From: Salmonella phage vB_SenS-3 | Direction: 5' to 3' (one strand) | Sequence record: OR896822.1 | DNA length: 64,000 nucleotides | Part shown: positions 57,219 through 64,000 of the stretch, piece by piece | How the letters are laid out: every line of letters begins with the position of its first letter | Numbering within the stretch: position 1 is the first letter of the stretch | Notes under the pieces: generated by a model | Databases searched by the model: none | What the model saw: only the letters and a program-made list of their open reading frames with translations | What the model was told of the DNA's origin: nothing | Program-made: the position numbers and the translations under genes

Positions 57219-58069
57219 AGCAATATATTGAAACTGGAAAACGTATTCTTGAAGAGGGTGTATGGGTAACGAATCCTAGAACAGGGGTTCGTTGCCTAAC
57301 CATTATTGATGCAGACTTTACCTTTAACGTAGGAGCAGGAGAACTGCCGCTAGTAACTACTCGTAAAGCATTTGCTAAACAAGCAATAATGGAAATGATC
57401 GGATATCTACGTGGGTACGACTCAGCAGCACAATTCCGCGCTATTGGTGTTAATACATGGAATGCTAATGCAAATGAAAATATTGCCTGGCTAGGTAATC
57501 CATTCCGTAAAGGCGAGGATGATATGGGACGAGTCTATGGTGTTCAAGGACGTCATTGGACTAATTCTGATGGTATGGTATTTGATCAGTTAGCCAAAGT
57601 CTACCATAATTTGAAAAGAGGGATTGACGATCGTGGAGAAATTTTAACTTTTTGGAACCCTGGGGAATTTCGTAAAGGATGCCTACGTCCGTGTATGCAT
57701 ACCCATCAATTCTCTATTTTAGGTGATACACTATACCTAAACTCTTTCCAGAGGTCTAATGATTTCTTGCTGGGCCAAGTATTTAATATGGTGCAATGCT
57801 ATGCACTTCTAGCTATTATGGCACAGATTACAGGTCTTAAGCCAGGTATTGCTCGTCAAAAGATTATTAATCTTCATATCTATGAAGATCAGTATAATGT
57901 TCTGATGGAGCACAAGCAATTCGATCGTGAACCTTTTGCACCTCCTACTTTAGAAATCAATCCAAATATTAGAACTTTGGATGATGTATTAACGTGGGTA
58001 AGTAAGGATGATTTTACTGTTCGTGGCTATGAACACCATCCTGCTATTGCATATCCATTTACGGTGTAA
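57215..58069 (+). CDS. thyA: thymidylate synthase
   Basis: Motifs RPCMHTHQF (catalytic Cys) and [21 protein letters not shown] (RSxD...LG.PFN..SYALL). Confidence 0.8.
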
Positions 58070-58072
58070 CAT

Positions 58073-58426
58073 ATGTTAATTATACTATTATTTGTCATAT
58101 TCTTTCTAAAACATTTTATGGCCGATTATCCACTCCAAACACCATATATGCTAAGAAAGACGCATAAAATAGGGTGGAAACTTCCATTATTAACCCATTC
58201 GCTAGTACATGCTGGATTAACATTTGCAATTCTAATCCTATTCACATCACCAGGAATGTCTATAGCTTTAGCTATTATGGAATTAATTCTACACTTTATT
58301 ATAGATTATTGGAAAGCACAACGCTGTAAATACGCTATAAGCGATGCTAAGTTTTGGATAGCTTTAGGATTTGATCAGTTACTGCATTATCTGACATACG
58401 CCCTAATAATCTTGATTATAATCTAA
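58073..58426 (+). CDS. hydrophobic membrane protein
   Basis: 117 aa with at least three hydrophobic helices. Confidence 0.45.
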   Translation: MLIILLFVIFFLKHFMADYPLQTPYMLRKTHKIGWKLPLLTHSLVHAGLTFAILILFTSPGMSIALAIMELILHFIIDYWKAQRCKYAISDAKFWIALGFDQLLHYLTYALIILIII

Positions 58427-58431
58427 TTCAA

Positions 58432-58456
58432 ATAGCCCTTCGGGGCTATTATATTT
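58432..58456 (+). terminator. rho-independent terminator
   Basis: Hairpin ATAGCCC-TTCG-GGGCTAT followed by TATATTT. Confidence 0.6.
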
Positions 58457-58465
58457 AAATTTCAT

Positions 58466-58494
58466 TTGCTTACTGAGTGAAATTCAAATATAAT
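58466..58494 (+). promoter_or_regulatory. T5 early-type promoter
   Basis: TTGCTT-17-TATAAT. Confidence 0.6.
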
Positions 58495-58524
58495 ATACTT
58501 CTAATTTGACAGAAGGATTTAATA

Positions 58525-59103
58525 ATGACAGCCATAGTAGCATTTAAATATAAAGATAAAGTATACTTAGCTGGTGATCGTATGGGTTCTAATGGCTATA
58601 CGAAACTGCTGGTTAAAAATCCGAAAGTATTCAAAATCTCTGATGATTTGTACTTCGGATACACTAGTTCCTTCTACATGGGACAATTACTAGAGCATAG
58701 CTTTACTGTACCACCACGTTTAGCAGATATTTCCGATGATAAATATTTATATACGGAAATAGTACCTAAATTACGTGATATGTTTAACCAGAAAGATTTT
58801 GGCGAAAAGAAAAATGAAAAATATGCTGAACCTAATCTGGGACAATTTATTATGCTCTACAAAGGAAGAATCTTTATTTTCCAATCTAATGCTTCTATTC
58901 TAGAAGTTGAATATGCCGGTGTAGGCTGTGGAGGAGAAGATGTACTTTCCAGTATTCGTACAGGTTTAGCTATTGCGGATTGTCGAGCCACAGATTTAGA
59001 TGTAGATGATATATTTGAAATCATTGATCTGGCTTTTACGCATTGTGCAGATTATATGTGTGGTGTATCTTCCCAACATGATGTTTTAGTAATTGGAGAA
59101 TAA
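58525..59103 (+). CDS. HslV/proteasome-beta-like Ntn-hydrolase family protein
   Basis: 192 aa; N-terminus MTAIVAFKYKDKVYLAGD (Thr at position 2, cf. HslV MTTIVSV...AGD); GVGCGGEDV resembles HslV GSGG motif; from memory. Confidence 0.5.
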   Translation: MTAIVAFKYKDKVYLAGDRMGSNGYTKLLVKNPKVFKISDDLYFGYTSSFYMGQLLEHSFTVPPRLADISDDKYLYTEIVPKLRDMFNQKDFGEKKNEKYAEPNLGQFIMLYKGRIFIFQSNASILEVEYAGVGCGGEDVLSSIRTGLAIADCRATDLDVDDIFEIIDLAFTHCADYMCGVSSQHDVLVIGE

Positions 59104-59105
59104 AT

Positions 59106-59375
59106 ATGTCTATTCTTTTATCTGCTTTAGAAGCAAAACAAAATACTATTGCTAGCATTAAAAAGGAAGTAATTGACCTAGAATCACTTATTGCCGTAGA
59201 GATTGACAAAGCTATTAAAGATAAAGAATTTAACTGTCACATCCAGGGATTAACTGAATACTCAGAAAACGCTAGAAATAGCGTCATGCAAAAACTTAGC
59301 AAACTAGGTTATGTTGTAGAAGCTAAGTATGAACAGCGTGAAGGTTTTTGGCTTGAAATTGATTGGAGCAAATAA
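59106..59375 (+). CDS. hypothetical protein
   Basis: 89-aa ORF, stop overlaps RNase H start (TAATG). Confidence 0.4.
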   Translation: MSILLSALEAKQNTIASIKKEVIDLESLIAVEIDKAIKDKEFNCHIQGLTEYSENARNSVMQKLSKLGYVVEAKYEQREGFWLEIDWSK

Positions 59376-59851
59376 TGTCGGTTTTCCACATATATACAGA
59401 TGGTGCATGTAAGGGCAATCCTGGTTTAGGTGCGTGGGGATTCGTTGTCTATAATGATAATGATGATCGTATTGGCTCTAAATCTGGCTTCAGCCATAAA
59501 ACTACTAATAACGAAATGGAACTTACTGCAATTGTTGAAGTTCTTCGTTGGTCTACTAAGAAAGATAATCGTCCAGTAATTATCTACACTGATTCTGCTT
59601 ACTGCAAAAATGGTATGGAAAGCTGGATGTGGTCTTGGCAGAAGAAAGGATGGAAGAAAGGAGATGGTGAAACTCCTCTTAATCTAGAACTCTGGCAAGA
59701 AGCGTTTAAACTAACTCAACAGTATATTAATTTCCATGATACTAACCCAACCTTTGTTAAGGTTAAAGGTCACTCAGGTATTCGTGGTAATGAAGAAGTT
59801 GATGCTCTATGCAATACTGTAATTACTGAGCAAGAACTTGCTGAGATGTAA
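59375..59851 (+). CDS. rnhA: ribonuclease H (RNase HI)
   Basis: N-terminal IYTDGACKGNPG; TDS, and GHSG..GNEEVD motifs of RNase HI; ATG at 59375 with GGAG RBS (ORF track TTG 59363). Confidence 0.8.
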   Translation: MSVFHIYTDGACKGNPGLGAWGFVVYNDNDDRIGSKSGFSHKTTNNEMELTAIVEVLRWSTKKDNRPVIIYTDSAYCKNGMESWMWSWQKKGWKKGDGETPLNLELWQEAFKLTQQYINFHDTNPTFVKVKGHSGIRGNEEVDALCNTVITEQELAEM

Positions 59852-59871
59852 TAAATAAATTAAAAATTCAC

Positions 59872-59900
59872 TTGCTTAAAGCCCTCGAATTTATTATAAT
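59872..59900 (+). promoter_or_regulatory. T5 early-type promoter
   Basis: TTGCTT-17-TATAAT; a 9-bp inverted repeat (AAAGCCCTC at 59878-59886 / GAGGGCTTT at 59917-59925) spans the promoter and the downstream RBS. Confidence 0.6.
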
Positions 59901-59927
59901 ATTCGTATTGAAAGTGAGGAGGGCTTT

Positions 59928-60206
59928 ATGCGAATTTACAACTCAAATTCATTAGGATTTAAACCTTTGAGAAAACGCGCACAATCTCCGCGTCAGATCA
60001 GAAAGGCAAATATTGGTGAGCCAGAAACTAGGCTTCCACCACCTCCGGAGCAACGTCTAGTTTACTTAGACGAAGAATTAGCCGAAAGGGAACGTAAAGC
60101 TCAAGAAGAAATTGAGCGTAAGAAACTGTGTACTGCTCCTGCATATAATAAGGGTGGTTATCAGTACGTTTCCAGTGAGGAACAAGCTAAGATGATCGGC
60201 AGATAA
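59928..60206 (+). CDS. hypothetical protein
   Basis: 92-aa ORF with GAGGAG RBS. Confidence 0.4.
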   Translation: MRIYNSNSLGFKPLRKRAQSPRQIRKANIGEPETRLPPPPEQRLVYLDEELAERERKAQEEIERKKLCTAPAYNKGGYQYVSSEEQAKMIGR

Positions 60207-60222
60207 TTTTTAAAAAATTCAT

Positions 60223-60251
60223 TTGCTAAACGCTTCAAAATTTCGTATAAT
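60223..60251 (+). promoter_or_regulatory. T5 early-type promoter
   Basis: TTGCTA-17-TATAAT followed by ATATCTCATAAATTGATCAAC. Confidence 0.65.
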
Positions 60252-60289
60252 ATATCTCATAAATTGATCAACAAAAAGGAAAACAAATA

Positions 60290-60805
60290 ATGGCTAAGCA
60301 GAAAAACGCAAAAACTCAGGCAGCTCCGGCAGTTAAAACTTTCGCTCAGACCGAAGCCAATCGTAAGGCTCGTCTGGAACGTCATCTGCGTAAGCATCCT
60401 ACTGATGCTCAGGCTCAGACTGCCCTGAAGTCTGCGGCTCCGGTTCGCCAGAAGCCGAAGGCCAAGAACTCTACTCGCGCAACTGCTAAGCAGGTTGTGT
60501 TCATCAAGGGTGAAGGTCATAAGTCTGTACCGGTAACTCTGAGCTTTAACGGTGGTGCTGAGATGTTCGCCCGCAACGGTATGGCTCTGAAAGACTACGA
60601 AAAAGCAGTCAATCAGAAGCGTAAGCCAATGGCTGACGTAATGCGTGAATCGCGTGGACAGTTTGGCTCCGTTAAACCGAATATCTTCGGTGTAGAGTAC
60701 AGCCGTGACAACGTTCGCGCTCTGTGCTACGGTATCGGTATTAAGTTTACTGGTGCTTCTGATCGTAAATCCGCTAAACCTACTCGTAAGCGTAAAGCGA
60801 AGTAA
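60290..60805 (+). CDS. basic Lys/Arg/Ala-rich protein, possibly abundant nucleic-acid-binding protein
   Basis: 171 aa; strongly optimised codon usage; own promoter and downstream hairpin; function inferred only from composition. Confidence 0.5.
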   Translation: MAKQKNAKTQAAPAVKTFAQTEANRKARLERHLRKHPTDAQAQTALKSAAPVRQKPKAKNSTRATAKQVVFIKGEGHKSVPVTLSFNGGAEMFARNGMALKDYEKAVNQKRKPMADVMRESRGQFGSVKPNIFGVEYSRDNVRALCYGIGIKFTGASDRKSAKPTRKRKAK

Positions 60806-60813
60806 TGATTGAT

Positions 60814-60827
60814 GGGGCGAAAGCCCC
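60814..60827 (+). terminator. GNRA-tetraloop hairpin (GGGGC-GAAA-GCCCC), weak terminator or RNA-stability element
   Basis: Perfect 5-bp GC stem with GAAA loop; downstream U-tract is poor. Confidence 0.4.
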
Positions 60828-60866
60828 ATATACTAACTCTTTCTCTGACTAATCAAGGATATTTTT

Positions 60867-61082
60867 ATGTTCTCTAAGAAACCACGTTCCGTTACTGAAA
60901 TCGTTGCTTCCTTTACCACTATTACTGATGAACTTCAAGCTCGTATTGAAGCTGACCAGAAAACTGCTGCTGATATTCAGAAACAGCAGGAAGAACTCGC
61001 TCTGAAACTGGCTGAAACCAATAAGAGTGAAAAATCTGCTCAAACTATTAAGGAAAATATCCTTAAACTGCTGGGCAAGTAA
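60867..61082 (+). CDS. hypothetical protein
   Basis: 71-aa ORF, coiled-coil-like. Confidence 0.4.
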   Translation: MFSKKPRSVTEIVASFTTITDELQARIEADQKTAADIQKQQEELALKLAETNKSEKSAQTIKENILKLLGK

Positions 61083-61091
61083 TTTAAATCA

Positions 61092-61112
61092 GGGGGCGAA
61101 AGCCCCTCTTAT
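61092..61112 (+). terminator. hairpin GGGGGC-GAAA-GCCCCT plus U-rich tail
   Basis: Same GGGGCGAAAGCCCC core as at 60814; followed by CTTATTT. Confidence 0.45.
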
Positions 61113-61123
61113 TTGGAGAAACT

Positions 61124-61336
61124 ATGCGTAACTTCGTTGCAAAGAATGATTTTAACCGTGCTAGCACTCACAAGTCTGCTAGAGACTACACTCGTCTTTC
61201 TAAACATGAGCTTCTAGAAGAAATCATGGAAGAAAACTGGGATGTTAGTGAAAATGGAACAGACCTGTTTGAAGAAGAGGAACTTCCTCTGAAAGACCCC
61301 AAACAGTGGGAGTCTATTAAAGAGACAGCTCTTTAA
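61124..61336 (+). CDS. hypothetical protein
   Basis: 70-aa ORF. Confidence 0.4.
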   Translation: MRNFVAKNDFNRASTHKSARDYTRLSKHELLEEIMEENWDVSENGTDLFEEEELPLKDPKQWESIKETAL

Positions 61337-61366
61337 TAGTTTTCTACAACAATAAAGGACATAATT

Positions 61367-62068
61367 ATGAAATTCAAGCCCTTTGGTATGCTGGACATTG
61401 AATCTCTAGGTACTCCAGGAAATTGCGGTACTACTCATATTGCAATGCCTTCTTTCGCTTTTGTAGCGATGCACGGAATTGATAAAGATCCTGATCTGGT
61501 ATTCGTTACTCTAGACGTTCAAGATCAGCTTAATGCGGGTGCTAAGGTAACTGCCTCTACTATTGCATTCTGGATGGATCAAGCTAAAAACAGTCCATCT
61601 GCGCTCCATATTATGGAGGCTCTAAATGGTCGTAATCCTAAACTGATTGCCTTCCGTGATGGTAAGCATCACTGCACTAATGACGTAGGCTCTAATTATG
61701 CTGCCTTCTCTATGGCTCAGAACATTATGGAATTGTCTCTAGGAGATAATGCTCTGTATTATGGCAATGGCCCAGAGTTTGATATGACAATCTACTCTGC
61801 AAATACGTTCCATGCCGGAACCCATGAAGAAATAGTTCCGTGGAAATTCTGGAACTTAGGTAACGTTCGATCTTTCCGTAATCAGTGGATGCAAGCTGGT
61901 TATAGCTATAAAGATCTAGAAGCCGAAGGTGCTAGCTGGGCAAAAGCTAAAATGGAAAAGATGGACACCATTCGTTATGGAATCTATCCTGTGAAGCATG
62001 ATCCAGCATTCGATGCTTTAGTTGAAAGTTATTGTGTAGCCGTCATGATCGAAAAAATCAAAATTTGA
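61367..62068 (+). CDS. putative DEDDh-type 3'-5' exonuclease-like protein
   Basis: N-terminal MLDIESLGT (Exo I DxE motif) and C-terminal KHDPAFDALVESY (Exo III H-x4-D motif); middle motif less clear. Confidence 0.45.
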   Translation: MKFKPFGMLDIESLGTPGNCGTTHIAMPSFAFVAMHGIDKDPDLVFVTLDVQDQLNAGAKVTASTIAFWMDQAKNSPSALHIMEALNGRNPKLIAFRDGKHHCTNDVGSNYAAFSMAQNIMELSLGDNALYYGNGPEFDMTIYSANTFHAGTHEEIVPWKFWNLGNVRSFRNQWMQAGYSYKDLEAEGASWAKAKMEKMDTIRYGIYPVKHDPAFDALVESYCVAVMIEKIKI

Positions 62069-62069
62069 T

Positions 62070-62098
62070 TTGCTTTCAGCTCCAAAATTCTGTATAAT
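62070..62098 (+). promoter_or_regulatory. T5 PN25-like early promoter
   Basis: TTGCTTTCAGCTCCAAAATTCTGTATAAT followed by ATATTCATAAATTTGAGAGAAC. Confidence 0.65.
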
Positions 62099-62138
62099 AT
62101 ATTCATAAATTTGAGAGAACAACAAAAGGAAAATAATT

Positions 62139-62321
62139 ATGCCAGTATCTAAAAACGTCCGTAAAAATGGTAAAGTAGCAAAACGTAACCTGGGTCTGCG
62201 TCGTATGGCTGAGCGTCAGTCCGGCATCCAGAAAATCTTTAATGTGCTGAATCGCGCCAACCCGAATATTGATAACAGTTCTGATACTGTTCTGCGCACT
62301 CTGCTGGCAATCGGTCTGTAA
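62139..62321 (+). CDS. hypothetical protein
   Basis: 60-aa basic ORF with optimised codons, first gene after promoter. Confidence 0.35.
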   Translation: MPVSKNVRKNGKVAKRNLGLRRMAERQSGIQKIFNVLNRANPNIDNSSDTVLRTLLAIGL

Positions 62322-62374
62322 TAGACCATTTTTAAAACAAATTCAAATCTCAAACTTCATATAAGGAAGAAATA

Positions 62375-63013
62375 ATGACTACTCGTATCTCTAAAACTCG
62401 TGCTCTGGCAACTATCAAGTCTCTAGAAGCTAAAATCCGTAAAGCTACTGAACAACAGCTTTTGATTGCTGTTGGTGAAGGTAAGGATAAGAACCAAGTT
62501 GTAGTTGGCGCTGCAATCGAAGTAGATGCTCTGTCTACTCGTATTAAGACTGATTTCCAGTCTCTGTTGGATATGATGTCCCAGCGTGATCATCTGAAAG
62601 CAGCGCTGATCAAGAGCAATGCTGAAACTGTTGTAGAGATCGGTTCCCGATCTATGACTGTTGCGGAAGCAATCGAAGCTAAGCGTTCTATGGAACTCAA
62701 AGCTCAGTTGCTGGCTAACATGCGTAAGCAGTTCCATGCTGCTACTGTTAAGTTTAACACTCAGAAGGCTCAGTTTGATAACAAGTATGAGCGTTTGCAG
62801 GATACCATGGCTACCCGCGACAAGAAGACTTCTGAGGATGAAGTTAAGATGCAGCTTAACCTGCTGGAACTCAAGAACACTCCGTTCCTGATCGATCCGC
62901 TGGAGCTGGAAAAGCTGATCAAGCAACACGACGAAGAATACCAGGATTTTGCAACCAACGTTGACTTTGTTATGTCTGAGTCCAACGCCTCTACTTTTAT
63001 CGAAGTAGAGTAA
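62375..63013 (+). CDS. hypothetical protein
   Basis: 212-aa ORF, optimised codon usage, AAGGAAGA RBS. Confidence 0.45.
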   Translation: MTTRISKTRALATIKSLEAKIRKATEQQLLIAVGEGKDKNQVVVGAAIEVDALSTRIKTDFQSLLDMMSQRDHLKAALIKSNAETVVEIGSRSMTVAEAIEAKRSMELKAQLLANMRKQFHAATVKFNTQKAQFDNKYERLQDTMATRDKKTSEDEVKMQLNLLELKNTPFLIDPLELEKLIKQHDEEYQDFATNVDFVMSESNASTFIEVE

Positions 63014-63403
63014 TGATTTAAAAGACTAGTAAATCGGTAGACGAAAGCCCAAGCATCTTACCTCGCAGCAGCGGTTGAAATACGAGGTTAAATAAGACCG
63101 CTGACCATACTATAAAGTATAATCTATTGGAGATTATCTTAATTTATTTTTCGGCAGATGTTGCATCTGTCAAAATAAAACAAGACGTCGTTGGTAGTAC
63201 CAACACAACTTCAAAGATCAACGCTCAAGTATGAAAGCTGAAAAGTTAAAAGCACTCAAACTTCTAACCTTCTAAAGCTAAAAGATGCAAAGTATTCGTT
63301 GATGATTCAAACCCTAGATCAAAGGTACATGGCTCATAAGATATGGCCTGTGGCGCCTCTAGGCTATTTATCGGTTTACTAGTTTCACAATTTAAAAATG
63401 TAT

Positions 63404-63432
63404 TTGCTAATTAGTTTAGTTTTCTGTATAAT
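63404..63432 (+). promoter_or_regulatory. T5 early-type promoter
   Basis: TTGCTA-17-TATAAT followed by ATATTTTTAAATTGATGAGACGAGG. Confidence 0.65.
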
Positions 63433-63462
63433 ATATTTTTAAATTGATGAGACGAGGCTATT

Positions 63463-63780
63463 ATGATTTTTCATATTCTTATTGATGATGTGCGTAACCT
63501 TCATGGAATGGACATTATAATTCGAACCCCCGAAGCCGCTGTTGAGTTTCTGAATAAAACCGATACCACAGGTCATTTCGTTTATATGGATAACGATCTG
63601 GCTGTAGATGATATGGAAGGTTATCAAATTCTTCGTTTACTCCTAGAATTTGGTCAGAGACCCAAGAAAGTGGTACTAGTAACCTCGAACCCAGTAGCTA
63701 AAGAGACCATGCGTAATGATCTCTTAGACGAAGGGTATCAAGAAAGCCCTAATCGTATTGAGTACGATTGGCCGGAGTAA
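63463..63780 (+). CDS. hypothetical protein
   Basis: 105-aa ORF with GAGG RBS; spacing of acidic and Ser/Thr residues is faintly receiver-domain-like, not supported. Confidence 0.4.
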   Translation: MIFHILIDDVRNLHGMDIIIRTPEAAVEFLNKTDTTGHFVYMDNDLAVDDMEGYQILRLLLEFGQRPKKVVLVTSNPVAKETMRNDLLDEGYQESPNRIEYDWPE

Positions 63781-63785
63781 ATAAA

Positions 63786-64000
63786 ATGAAGGCAGCTTTG
63801 CTTTTAATAGCTGCCCTAACCTATAGCTTCAATAGTCATGCTACCTACGACGCTAAACAGATTGATTGCATTGCAAAAAATGTCTATTTTGAGAGCCGAG
63901 GTGAGGGCACGAAGGGAATGGTTGCAGTTGCACAGGTCACCAAAAACCGTGTTAACTCTGGTACATTCCCGGATTCTTACTGTAAAGTAGTATATCAGTC
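63786..64000 (+). CDS. secreted cell-wall hydrolase, SleB/CwlJ-like (3' partial at window edge)
   Basis: ATG at 63786; signal-peptide-like MKAALLLIAALTYSFNSHA; motif AKNVYFESRGE...GMVAVAQVTKNRV...FPDSYCKVVYQ resembles the Hydrolase_2 (SleB) family; truncated by window end. Confidence 0.5.
   Translation, partial: MKAALLLIAALTYSFNSHATYDAKQIDCIAKNVYFESRGEGTKGMVAVAQVTKNRVNSGTFPDSYCKVVYQ

What the first reader, a model, noticed from the sequence alone, without database searches (positions are those of the whole stretch)
61367..62068. Candidate DnaQ-like (DEDDh) exonuclease among small early genes
N-terminal DIESLG and C-terminal H-x4-D-A motifs match the Exo I and Exo III motifs of DEDDh 3'-5' exonucleases, though the middle motif is not clear. 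Such an enzyme in the early nucleotide-metabolism module could take part in host DNA or RNA degradation or oligonucleotide recycling.
Basis: inference. Interest (0 to 1): 0.35.

Follow-up and report, generated by a model that had tools for sequence, protein, structure and literature searches.

The report
T5-type DexA-like 3'-5' exonuclease gene
This gene of a T5-like Salmonella/E. coli phage almost certainly encodes a small DNA/RNA-end-trimming enzyme (a DEDDh 3'-5' exonuclease related to phage T4 DexA); databases already list it, often under the wrong name "metallopeptidase", so the finding is correct but ordinary.

Summary
The ORF exists exactly as described (61367-62068, +, 233 aa). The window is a T5-like phage (Epseptimavirus), and the gene is the ortholog of T5 gene T5.087.

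All five DEDDh catalytic residues are present and conserved:
- D10 and E12 (Exo I)
- D139 in YGNGPEFDM (Exo II, the "unclear" middle motif)
- H211 and D216 (Exo III)

Evidence for the family assignment:
- Pfam PF16473 (Rv2179c-like) scores above its gathering cut-off, and PHROG 255 "exonuclease" gives E = 2.6e-52.
- A second-iteration profile finds T4 DexA at E = 1.4e-21.
- A confident AlphaFold model matches DEDDh exonuclease structures.

The widespread "metallopeptidase" label traces to an InterPro peptidase-M14 note on T5.087 and has no profile support.

New details:
- A 70-aa DUF7230 gene always sits directly upstream and is fused to the exonuclease in Klebsiella phages.
- Published CRISPRi-ART data call T5.087 "Not Fit", meaning knock-down had no significant fitness effect.
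- T5 host-DNA breakdown is done by pre-early A1, and T5 does not recycle host nucleotides. A DexA-style scavenging role is therefore doubtful.

The enzyme class is well supported. The substrate (DNA or RNA) and the physiological role remain inferred. Low novelty.

The parts
61367..62068 (+). CDS, 233 aa plus stop: DEDDh 3'-5' exonuclease, ortholog of phage T5 gene T5.087 (Rv2179c-like/DexA family, PF16473)
   Evidence: ORF list. 100% nt identity to several Epseptimavirus genomes. T5.087 is annotated 'exonuclease' in RefSeq T5. Pfam and PHROG hits. AF2 model with mean pLDDT 88.
61355..61359 (+). Shine-Dalgarno AAGGA, 7 nt upstream of the ATG
   Evidence: Read directly from the sequence.
61394..61411 (+). 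Exo I motif D10-I-E12-S-L-G, at the end of predicted strand beta-1 (aa 6-12)
   Evidence: D10 and E12 are invariant in 50/50 sequences. They align to DexA D7/E9. Secondary structure.
61760..61786 (+). Exo II motif Y132-G-N-G-P-E-F-D139-M. D139 lies at the N-terminus of helix 137-149, after strand 130-133
   Evidence: D139 50/50, G135 49/50, F138 48/50. Aligns to DexA D119.
61838..61855 (+). Family-specific P158-W-K-F-W162-N motif. W162 is the counterpart of DexA W152, a substrate-contacting Trp contributed by the partner subunit in the DexA dimer
   Evidence: Alignment mapping. Role of DexA W152 from PMC12153337. A short strand is predicted here in the fused homolog's model.
61997..62017 (+). 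Exo III motif H211-D-P-A-F-D216-A217 at the start of the C-terminal helix (aa 213-231). H211 makes this DEDDh rather than DEDDy
   Evidence: H211 50/50 and D216 49/50. They align to DexA H186/D191.
61811..61843 (+). HAGTHEEIVPW (aa 149-159): a chance match to the old PROSITE zinc-carboxypeptidase signature. This is the probable source of the legacy 'metallopeptidase' label. It lies in a lower-confidence stretch of the model (pLDDT block means 75 and 64 for residues 151-170)
   Evidence: Regex match (the pattern is quoted from memory). The T5.087 note cites IPR000834. No peptidase family appears in Pfam at E<=1. pLDDT blocks.
61124..61336 (+). 70-aa DUF7230 protein (T5.088 ortholog). It is the conserved upstream partner and is fused to the exonuclease in Klebsiella T5-like phages
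   Evidence: Pfam PF23876 27.7 bits against a gathering score of 27. Phrog_4586. Fusion in a 334-aa CDS. Immediate adjacency in divergent contigs L006-L008 and Serratia phage Kamaji.
60290..60805 (+). DUF7022 protein (T5.089 ortholog), first gene of the same early transcription unit
   Evidence: Pfam PF22887 E = 1.5e-79. Conserved upstream position in L006-L008.
60223..60251 (+). Sigma-70 promoter-like site TTGCTA-17-TATAAT. It is positionally equivalent to T5 early promoter P-H207 and is the likely promoter of the DUF7022...DUF7230-exonuclease unit
   Evidence: Consensus scan, 10/12 matches. The T5 annotation shows P-H207 upstream of T5.089 and no promoter between T5.089 and T5.087.

Best explanation
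The ORF encodes an early-expressed, divalent-metal-dependent DEDDh 3'-to-5' exonuclease. It is the Epseptimavirus ortholog of phage T5 gene T5.087 and a divergent member of the Rv2179c-like/DexA family (PF16473).

Mechanism, inferred from the family. D10, E12, D139 and D216 hold two metal ions. H211 activates the attacking water. 5'-mononucleotides are removed one at a time from a free 3'-OH end of single-stranded nucleic acid or short oligonucleotides. By analogy with DexA and Rv2179c the enzyme is probably a homodimer, in which the conserved PWKFW loop (W162) of one subunit helps form the substrate pocket of the other.

Expression, partly shown. The gene lies in one early transcription unit with DUF7022 and the DUF7230 peptide, behind a P-H207-type promoter.

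Role, inferred. It is a dispensable accessory enzyme that trims single-stranded 3' ends and clears oligonucleotides during phage DNA replication, recombination or homing, and during RNA-primer or mRNA turnover. It is not the enzyme that destroys the host chromosome. I put DNA/oligonucleotide substrates at about 55%, RNA at about 35% and other substrates at about 10%.
For: Family membership:
- PF16473 scores 31.9 bits, above the gathering score of 27.
- PHROG 255 'exonuclease' gives E = 2.6e-52.
- 48 of 50 sampled relatives hit PF16473, and T4 DexA itself scores 79.9 bits.

Catalytic residues: D10/E12/D139/H211 are invariant and D216 is present in 49 of 50 across 50 sequences. They map onto DexA D7/E9/D119/H186/D191.

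Homology to a characterised enzyme:
- hhalign of the narrow clade against DexA gives probability 64%, E = 6e-5.
- A profile of second-iteration hits without DexA finds DexA at E = 1.4e-21, with all three motifs aligned.
- The same family profile reaches RNase T, DnaQ and PolC-exo chains.

Structure:
- AF2 gives pLDDT 88 and pTM 0.89, with the beta1-beta2-beta3 / helix / beta4 / helix order of the RNase H-like DEDD fold.
- The seven best PDB matches are all the DEDDh nuclease 3'hExo (best E = 0.014, probability 0.99).
- 29 viral models match at E<=1e-3. Nearly all the named ones outside the T5-like clade are exonucleases or nucleases, including a DexA and a Goslar Rv2179c-like protein.

Context: the gene sits downstream of nrdA/nrdB/frd/thy/rnh, in conserved synteny in T5 and in divergent T5-like contigs.

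Dispensability: T5.087 is 'Not Fit' in the CRISPRi-ART knock-down screen (PMC11879866 supplementary file 16). T4 DexA is likewise conditionally required only in optA hosts (PMC12153337).
Against: - No biochemical data exist for any member of the T5.087 clade; a literature search for 'T5.087' found no paper.
- Structural similarity to solved DEDDh enzymes is only moderate (TM 0.45-0.51), and Foldseek did not return DexA 8kel/8ken.
- The narrow-clade HMM alone does not reach DexA or any PDB exonuclease, so the link is transitive.
- Substrate type cannot be read from sequence. The two characterised family members differ: DexA acts on DNA and Rv2179c on RNA.
- The DexA-type scavenging role conflicts with T5 biology.
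- Dimerisation was not tested.
Confidence: 0.8

Rival explanations
1. Same fold and chemistry, but the physiological substrate is RNA. The enzyme would be an Rv2179c/Orn/RNase T-like exoribonuclease that does one or more of three things: degrades oligoribonucleotides (for example primer fragments released by the neighbouring RNase H, or host mRNA fragments), supplies rNMPs for the adjacent ribonucleotide reductase pathway, or trims 3' ends of the many phage tRNAs.
For: - The Pfam family is named after an exoribonuclease.
- The best PDB fold matches are the RNA exonuclease 3'hExo.
- The family profile reaches RNase T.
- The gene lies about 1.5 kb downstream of rnh and near nrdAB. A tRNA cluster starts a few kb further downstream in related genomes.
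- T5 makes its nucleotides de novo and does not reuse host DNA.
Against: - The only characterised phage member, T4 DexA, is a DNA exonuclease (PMC12153337).
- Several database records call it exodeoxyribonuclease, though only by transfer.
- No RNA-binding accessory domain is present.
Confidence: 0.3
2. The exonuclease and the DUF7230 peptide form a two-part counter-defence or host-takeover module. The largely disordered basic/acidic peptide would target or regulate the nuclease towards a specific host nucleic acid or nucleoprotein, such as a defence-system DNA/RNA or linear signalling oligonucleotides.
For: - The pairing is strict and there are gene fusions.
- Knock-down has no fitness effect in a laboratory host, as is typical for conditionally needed genes.
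- Bacterial DexA homologs act in defence, so the family is used in phage-host conflict (PMC12153337).
- Variable accessory genes surround the module.
Against: - No PADLOC hit.
- No experimental link to any defence system.
- The fusion keeps an internal SD plus ATG, so it may be a trivial loss of a stop codon.
- The DUF7230 part is predicted with low confidence and gives no functional clue.
Confidence: 0.12
3. It is a zinc metallopeptidase (M14 carboxypeptidase-like), as most GenBank records of T5-like phages label it.
For: - Hundreds of records carry the label 'putative metallopeptidase'.
- The T5.087 note cites InterPro IPR000834.
- The peptide HAGTHEEIVPW fits the old short PROSITE carboxypeptidase pattern (pattern quoted from memory).
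Against: - No peptidase family appears in Pfam even at E<=1.
- The matching peptide lies in a lower-confidence stretch of the model, and its histidines are not conserved in the family.
- The fold is RNase H-like, not carboxypeptidase-like.
- RefSeq T5 and PHROGs have already renamed it 'exonuclease'.
Confidence: 0.01
4. It is a catalytically dead DEDDh-fold protein that only binds nucleic acid ends or another protein.
For: The clade is divergent. It carries a roughly 30-residue insertion (beta-hairpin aa 92-106) and gives weak matches to solved enzymes.
Against: All five catalytic residues, plus N134/G135/F138, are strictly conserved across the clade and the wider family. This is not expected for a pseudo-enzyme.
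Confidence: 0.03

Closest known systems
Phage T4 DexA (exonuclease A; PDB 8kel/8ken)
   Same: - Same Pfam family PF16473.
- Similar size (227 against 233 aa).
- Identical DEDDh residues: D7/E9/D119/H186/D191 correspond to D10/E12/D139/H211/D216.
- Shared FW(M/K) motif, PxKFWN loop with the substrate Trp (W152 = W162), and an invariant Arg (R158 = R168).
- An accessory phage gene that is dispensable under standard laboratory conditions.
   Different: - Only about 18% identity, and the homology is detectable only by profile methods.
- DexA D169, needed for 5hmC-DNA, corresponds to Q176 here. The tetramer residue D90 corresponds to A112.
- As far as I know (not tested here), T5-like phages have unmodified cytosine, so 5hmC discrimination would be irrelevant.
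- T4 recycles host nucleotides and T5 does not.
- DexA has no DUF7230 partner.
Mycobacterium tuberculosis Rv2179c (founding member of PF16473; a 3'-5' exoribonuclease, from my own knowledge of the literature)
   Same: Same Pfam family and DEDDh chemistry. It is a small single-domain protein.
   Different: - It is a cellular protein of about 170-180 aa, lacking the insertion between Exo I and Exo II seen in the T5 clade (typical family lengths).
- Its substrate is RNA.
- It was not recovered in the PDB sequence or fold searches here, so no direct comparison was made.
3'hExo/ERI1 nuclease domain (PDB 1w0h, 4l8r, 1zbh, 1zbu, 4qoz)
   Same: Best solved-structure matches: DEDDh fold, probability 0.99, TM 0.45-0.51.
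   Different: About 10-12% identity. It is a eukaryotic RNA-specific enzyme with a SAP domain, and the structural superposition is only moderate.
E. coli RNase T, DnaQ (Pol III epsilon) and PolC exonuclease domains
   Same: Reached by the family profile at E = 5e-4 to 1e-3. Same DEDDh motifs. The DexA paper names epsilon as second-closest structural neighbour and Rexo2/Orn as closest.
   Different: These are different families (PF00929). Only 4 of 50 relatives also hit PF00929. They have different partners and roles (proofreading, tRNA maturation).

Membership tests
DEDDh (DnaQ-like) 3'-5' exonuclease superfamily | Exo I motif D-x-E at the end of the first beta-strand | tested here: met
   D10-I-E12 lies within predicted strand 6-12. 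It is invariant in 50/50 sequences.
DEDDh (DnaQ-like) 3'-5' exonuclease superfamily | Exo II motif with an invariant Asp at the start of the helix that follows beta-4 | tested here: met
   GNGPEF-D139. Strand 130-133 is followed by helix 137-149. D139 is present in 50/50 sequences.
DEDDh (DnaQ-like) 3'-5' exonuclease superfamily | Exo III motif H-x4-D (His rather than the Tyr of DEDDy) | tested here: met
   H211-DPAF-D216. H is present in 50/50 and D in 49/50 sequences.
DEDDh (DnaQ-like) 3'-5' exonuclease superfamily | RNase H-like alpha/beta fold | tested here: met
   The AF2 model has pLDDT 88. The top 7 PDB hits are all the DEDDh nuclease 3'hExo, but with TM of only about 0.45-0.5. 29 viral matches at E<=1e-3; nearly all the named ones outside the T5-like clade are exonucleases or nucleases. 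Model coordinates could not be inspected, so clustering of the five residues was not checked.
DEDDh (DnaQ-like) 3'-5' exonuclease superfamily | Metal-dependent 3'-5' exonuclease activity | not testable with these tools
   Needs a nuclease assay. No published assay for T5.087 was found.
Pfam PF16473 Rv2179c-like / DexA family | Score above the curated gathering threshold | tested here: met
   31.9 bits against 27. Close relatives carry a precomputed PF16473 assignment.
Pfam PF16473 Rv2179c-like / DexA family | Profile-level homology to a characterised member | tested here: met
   A profile built from hits of the T5 clade, without DexA, finds T4 DexA at E = 1.4e-21 over residues 4-215. hhalign gives 64%, E = 6e-5.
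Pfam PF16473 Rv2179c-like / DexA family | Family-specific conserved residues outside the DEDDh set (W in the FW motif, PW-FW loop, invariant Arg) | tested here: met
   W69 50/50, R168 50/50, W159 37/50, W162 29/50.
Pfam PF16473 Rv2179c-like / DexA family | Homodimer with a composite active site | not tested
   Only monomer prediction was available.
T4 DexA functional type (5hmC-discriminating host-DNA scavenger and homing exonuclease) | Residues needed for 5hmC-DNA cleavage (W152 and D169) | tested here: not met
   The W152 equivalent is present (W162), but D169 aligns to Q176. Residue roles are from PMC12153337.
T4 DexA functional type (5hmC-discriminating host-DNA scavenger and homing exonuclease) | Tetramer-forming residues S87/D90 | tested here: not met
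   S87 aligns to S109 but D90 aligns to A112. The alignment in this insertion-rich region is uncertain.
T4 DexA functional type (5hmC-discriminating host-DNA scavenger and homing exonuclease) | Supplies dNMPs from host DNA for phage replication | not testable with these tools
   The literature argues against it for T5. A1 alone degrades host DNA, and the products are dephosphorylated and excreted.
Peptidase M14 (zinc carboxypeptidase), the legacy annotation | Significant match to the family profile and conserved zinc ligands | tested here: not met
   No peptidase family appears in Pfam at E<=1. Only an 11-residue pattern match in a lower-confidence stretch of the model, with non-conserved histidines.

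The most novel reading that the evidence does not exclude
The strictly conserved and sometimes fused DUF7230-exonuclease pair is a dedicated two-component module of Demerecviridae. A largely disordered peptide has an invariant basic N-terminus (MRNFVAKNDFNRASTHKS) and an acidic tail. It would dock the DEDDh nuclease onto a specific host or phage nucleoprotein target, or would gate its activity. This would give the module a role in counter-defence or host takeover rather than in general nucleotide metabolism.
Probability: 0.12. Interest if true: 0.5.

Novelty: new member of a known kind. Interest (0 to 1): 0.2.

Why it matters
It matters mainly as an annotation correction.
- Several hundred T5-like phage genomes, many of them therapy or biocontrol candidates against Salmonella, E. 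coli and Klebsiella, carry this gene as "metallopeptidase". The label has even spread to the unrelated 70-aa upstream gene.
- Correctly read, it is a DexA/Rv2179c-type exonuclease, and no member of this clade has been studied biochemically.
- T5 does not recycle host DNA, so this enzyme is a natural test of what DexA-like exonucleases do apart from scavenging.
- Its constant DUF7230 partner is an untouched small-protein family.

None of this is surprising to a specialist.

Tried and rejected
- Single-sequence phmmer against PDB gave only designed armadillo-repeat proteins (E down to 6e-7). These arise from summing many 4-bit matches of one 27-residue stretch to a repeat, with every individual stretch at E > 100. 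Rejected as an artefact.
- The narrow-clade profile A1 against PDB gave only PCNA at E about 1, which is chance. The same profile with HMMER does not reach DexA. A second iteration through the exhaustive representative search was needed.
- NCBIfam gave no hit for the exonuclease, DUF7230 or even T4 DexA.
- PADLOC gave no hit for the three window proteins.
- Rfam on 58000-64000 gave only a sub-threshold plant miRNA match, which is chance.
- Literature searches found nothing for 'T5.087' or 'DUF7230', and 'Rv2179c' with 'phage' gave nothing relevant. The HIDEN-SEQ essentiality paper does not appear to cover a T5-like phage ('Demerecviridae' and 'Markadamsvirinae' do not occur; 'phage T5' once).
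- I suspected from memory that DUF7230 might be an ArfA-like ribosome-rescue peptide. Pfam at E<=10 shows only DUF7230, so the idea was dropped.
- A structure prediction of the fused Klebsiella-phage protein, meant to show how DUF7230 packs, gave pLDDT block means of about 40-70 for the N-terminal part. It was uninformative beyond 'probably flexible'.
- The promoter scan missed the promoter just downstream of the gene because its -35 hexamer matches only 3 of 6 positions. I found it by eye and from the T5 annotation.
Full report
**What is there.** An AAGGA ribosome-binding site lies 7 nt before the ATG. The 702-nt gene is 100% identical to several Epseptimavirus genomes, such as Salmonella phages vB_SenS-3, polluks, vaffelhjerte and gmork. 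It is found at 80% identity or more in 391 phage records. At the protein level 549 records hold a relative, essentially all of them T5-like (Demerecviridae) phages of Salmonella, Escherichia, Klebsiella, Yersinia, Pectobacterium, Serratia and Vibrio. The gene is the positional and sequence ortholog of T5 gene T5.087 (YP_006915.1).

**Motifs.**
- DIESLG is residues 10-15, and H-x4-D-A is H211-DPAF-D216-A217.
- In 25 relatives down to 36% identity, D10, E12, G133-N134-G135, F138, D139, H211 and D216 are all invariant.
- In a 50-sequence alignment reaching 18% identity and including T4 DexA, D10, E12, W69, D139, R168 and H211 are invariant, and D216 is present in 49 of 50.
- Among the 55 ATG-ORFs of at least 120 aa in the six frames of the window, only this one has the three motifs in the right places.

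**Family assignment.**
- Pfam gives PF16473 (3'-5' exoribonuclease Rv2179c-like domain) at 31.9 bits, above the gathering score of 27.
- PHROGs gives phrog_255 'exonuclease' at E = 2.6e-52.
- T4 DexA is in the same Pfam family (79.9 bits).
- An exhaustive profile search of 1.84 billion representative proteins shows a narrow clade inside a large family: 12 representatives at E<1e-30, 36 at E<1e-10 and 983 at E<1e-3.
- 48 of 50 sampled members hit PF16473.
- The narrow-clade profile reaches T4 DexA only with hhalign (probability 64%, E = 6e-5).
- A profile built from the second-iteration hits, with DexA left out, finds DexA at E = 1.4e-21 with all three Exo motifs aligned.
- With DexA included, the family profile also reaches a '3'-5' exonuclease' chain (7t2s, E = 4e-7), RNase T, DnaQ and PolC-exo.
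- DexA residues D7/E9/D119/H186/D191 correspond to D10/E12/D139/H211/D216 here. These DexA residues are the counterparts of Pol III epsilon D12/E14/D103/H162/D167 according to PMC12153337.

**Structure.**
- AlphaFold2 with the 25-sequence alignment gives mean pLDDT 88 and pTM 0.89.
- The predicted order of elements fits a DEDD exonuclease fold with one extra beta-hairpin. The order is: beta1 (6-12, carrying D10/E12), beta2, beta3, helices, an inserted beta-hairpin (92-106), helix, beta4 (130-133), helix (137-149, D139 at its start), then C-terminal helices with H211/D216 at the start of the last one.
- Against solved structures, the seven best matches are all the DEDDh nuclease 3'hExo (best E = 0.014, probability 0.99, TM 0.45-0.51). 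This is consistent but only moderately similar, and DexA 8kel/8ken did not appear.
- Against predicted viral structures there are 29 matches at E<=1e-3. Apart from close T5-like relatives that carry the legacy 'metallopeptidase' name and one protein named adenylate kinase, the named matches are exonucleases or nucleases. They include a DexA (Delftia phage PhiW-14) and the Rv2179c-like protein of phage Goslar.
- I could not inspect model coordinates, so the spatial clustering of the five residues is inferred, not shown.

**The 'metallopeptidase' label.** Most GenBank records call this protein '(putative) metallopeptidase'.
- The T5 record explains the origin. The T5.087 note says 'identified by match to InterPro family IPR000834', which is peptidase M14 (my knowledge), while RefSeq now names the product 'exonuclease'.
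- Residues 149-159, HAGTHEEIVPW, fit the old short PROSITE zinc-carboxypeptidase pattern as I remember it. They do not fit the stricter later form.
- This peptide lies in a lower-confidence stretch of the model (pLDDT block means 75 and 64 for residues 151-170), and its histidines are not conserved.
- Pfam shows no peptidase family even at E<=1. The label is therefore a propagated pattern-match error.
- The label has even spread to the unrelated 70-aa upstream gene (for example polluks_91). This happened because that gene is fused to the exonuclease in Klebsiella phages such as Sugarland.

**Surroundings.** The gene order on the + strand is as follows:
- nrdA, nrdB, frd, thy
- a 117-aa ORF
- an HslV/proteasome-like 192-aa ORF
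- an 89-aa ORF
- RNase H
- a 92-aa ORF
- DUF7022 (60290-60805)
- a 71-aa ORF
- DUF7230 (61124-61336)
- the exonuclease
- small ORFs

Further points on the transcription unit:
- A TTGCTA-17-TATAAT site at 60223-60251 sits where T5 has its early promoter P-H207. T5 has no annotated promoter between T5.089 and T5.087. DUF7022, DUF7230 and the exonuclease are therefore probably co-transcribed early.
- A further promoter lies just after the stop codon and serves the next gene: TTGCTT-17-TATAAT at 62070-62098, with an A-rich upstream stretch.
- No Rfam family is present. The antisense ORFs are short and unsupported.

**The DUF7230 partner.**
- The 70-aa protein upstream matches PF23876 at 27.7 bits (gathering score 27) and phrog_4586.
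- It occurs in 530 phage records, against 549 for the exonuclease.
- It lies directly upstream, with gaps of about 10-25 nt, in Serratia phage Kamaji and in three divergent metagenomic T5-like contigs whose exonucleases are only about 40% identical.
- In Klebsiella T5-like phages the two genes form one 325-334-aa ORF.
- That ORF keeps an internal AAGGA plus ATG where the separate gene would start. Both a fused and a stand-alone product are therefore possible, and the fusion may be a simple loss of a stop codon.
- An AlphaFold model of the fused protein leaves the DUF7230 part at pLDDT block means of about 40-70, with one helix. It is probably flexible unless bound to something.
- The conserved core is MRNFVAKNDFNRASTHKSxxDYTR followed by an acidic tail.
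- No paper mentions DUF7230.

**Function.**
- Shown: sequence, motifs, family and predicted fold.
- Inferred from the family: two-metal-ion 3'-5' exonucleolysis, with H211 as general base, acting on free single-stranded 3'-OH ends.
- For physiological role, the nearest characterised relative is T4 DexA. It prefers ssDNA, supplies nucleotides from host DNA (it is essential only in optA hosts) and helps intron homing (PMC12153337).
- Two facts argue against copying the scavenging role to T5-like phages. [quoted passage not shown] Second, T5 dephosphorylates the products with Dmp, excretes them and makes nucleotides de novo (bioRxiv 10.64898/2026.04.02.716235).
- The DexA residue D169, needed for 5hmC-DNA, is Q176 here, and the tetramer residue D90 is A112.
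- In the genome-wide CRISPRi-ART screen of T5, T5.087 (listed there as 'exonuclease, phrog_255') and T5.088 (DUF7230) are 'Not Fit', meaning knock-down did not significantly reduce phage fitness. T5.089 (DUF7022) is 'Fit' at p = 0.0496 (PMC11879866, supplementary files 8 and 16).
- The enzyme is thus accessory in a laboratory host.
- My best reading is a general trimmer of single-stranded 3' ends and oligonucleotides in early DNA/RNA metabolism (replication, recombination or homing intermediates, primer or mRNA fragments). An RNA-directed role is the main rival, and a DUF7230-guided counter-defence role is an outside possibility.

**Novelty and verdict.** However, Pfam, PHROGs, RefSeq T5 and the CRISPRi-ART re-annotation already say 'exonuclease'. 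This is a member of a known family that has simply not been characterised. The value added here has five parts:
- the resolved Exo II motif;
- the explicit residue map to DexA;
- the explanation of the wrong 'metallopeptidase' label;
- the DUF7230 pairing and fusion;
- the argument that the T4-style scavenging role does not transfer.

Interest is low (0.2).

Noticed in passing
window 61124-61336 (+): 70-aa DUF7230 protein (T5.088 ortholog). It has an invariant basic N-terminus (MRNFVAKNDFNRASTHKS...) and an acidic tail. It always lies directly upstream of the exonuclease, is fused to it in Klebsiella T5-like phages, and is mislabelled 'metallopeptidase' in several records by transfer from the fusion. 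It is predicted largely disordered.
   Followed up: yes
window 58525-59103 (+): 192-aa HslV/proteasome-beta-like peptidase gene between thy and rnh (Pfam PF00227 38.5 bits; phrog_1040). It is present in about 125 close T5-like records. T5 annotates no gene between thy and rnh, and in phage polluks only a 98-aa ORF remains at this position. Distant copies occur in jumbo phages. It looks like a variable accessory gene of unknown role.
   Followed up: partly
window 60290-60805 (+): DUF7022 protein (T5.089 ortholog). It is the first gene of the same early unit and the only gene of the T5.089-T5.087 unit (and of T5.083-T5.090) scored 'Fit' in the T5 CRISPRi-ART screen (p = 0.0496). Its function is unknown. 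Its position upstream of DUF7230 and the exonuclease is conserved in divergent contigs.
   Followed up: partly
window 62070-62098 (+): Strong-looking early promoter TTGCTT-17-TATAAT with an A-rich upstream stretch that overlaps the last codons of the exonuclease gene. It corresponds to an annotated T5 promoter. The consensus scan missed it because its -35 hexamer matches only 3 of 6 positions.
   Followed up: partly
window 60867-61082 (+) and 61092-61107: 71-aa ORF (phrog_2380, unknown function) labelled 'tail length tape-measure protein' in phage polluks, which is implausible for a 71-aa early protein. T5 annotates no gene at this position between T5.089 and T5.088. It is followed by a GC-rich hairpin GGGGGCGAAAGCCCC with a weak T-tract, possibly a partial terminator or RNA-stability element inside the operon.
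   Followed up: no
window 62375-63013 (+): 212-aa ORF (T5.085 ortholog, phrog_1491) annotated 'tail fiber protein' although it sits among early genes. It has no Pfam hit. The label looks like another inherited guess.
   Followed up: no
L004 2466-2480 (Klebsiella phage vB_Kpn_K7_rec4): Inside the fused DUF7230-exonuclease ORF, an AAGGA Shine-Dalgarno and an ATG are retained exactly where the separate exonuclease gene starts in other phages. Two products (334 aa and about 250 aa) may therefore be made.
   Followed up: partly
window 61820-61900 (aa 152-178 of the exonuclease): The stretch THEEIVPWKFWNLGNVRSFRNQWMQAG gives misleadingly low whole-sequence E-values (down to 6e-7) against designed armadillo-repeat proteins in the PDB. 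A 4-bit match is summed over 5-6 repeats. This is a search artefact, not homology.
   Followed up: yes
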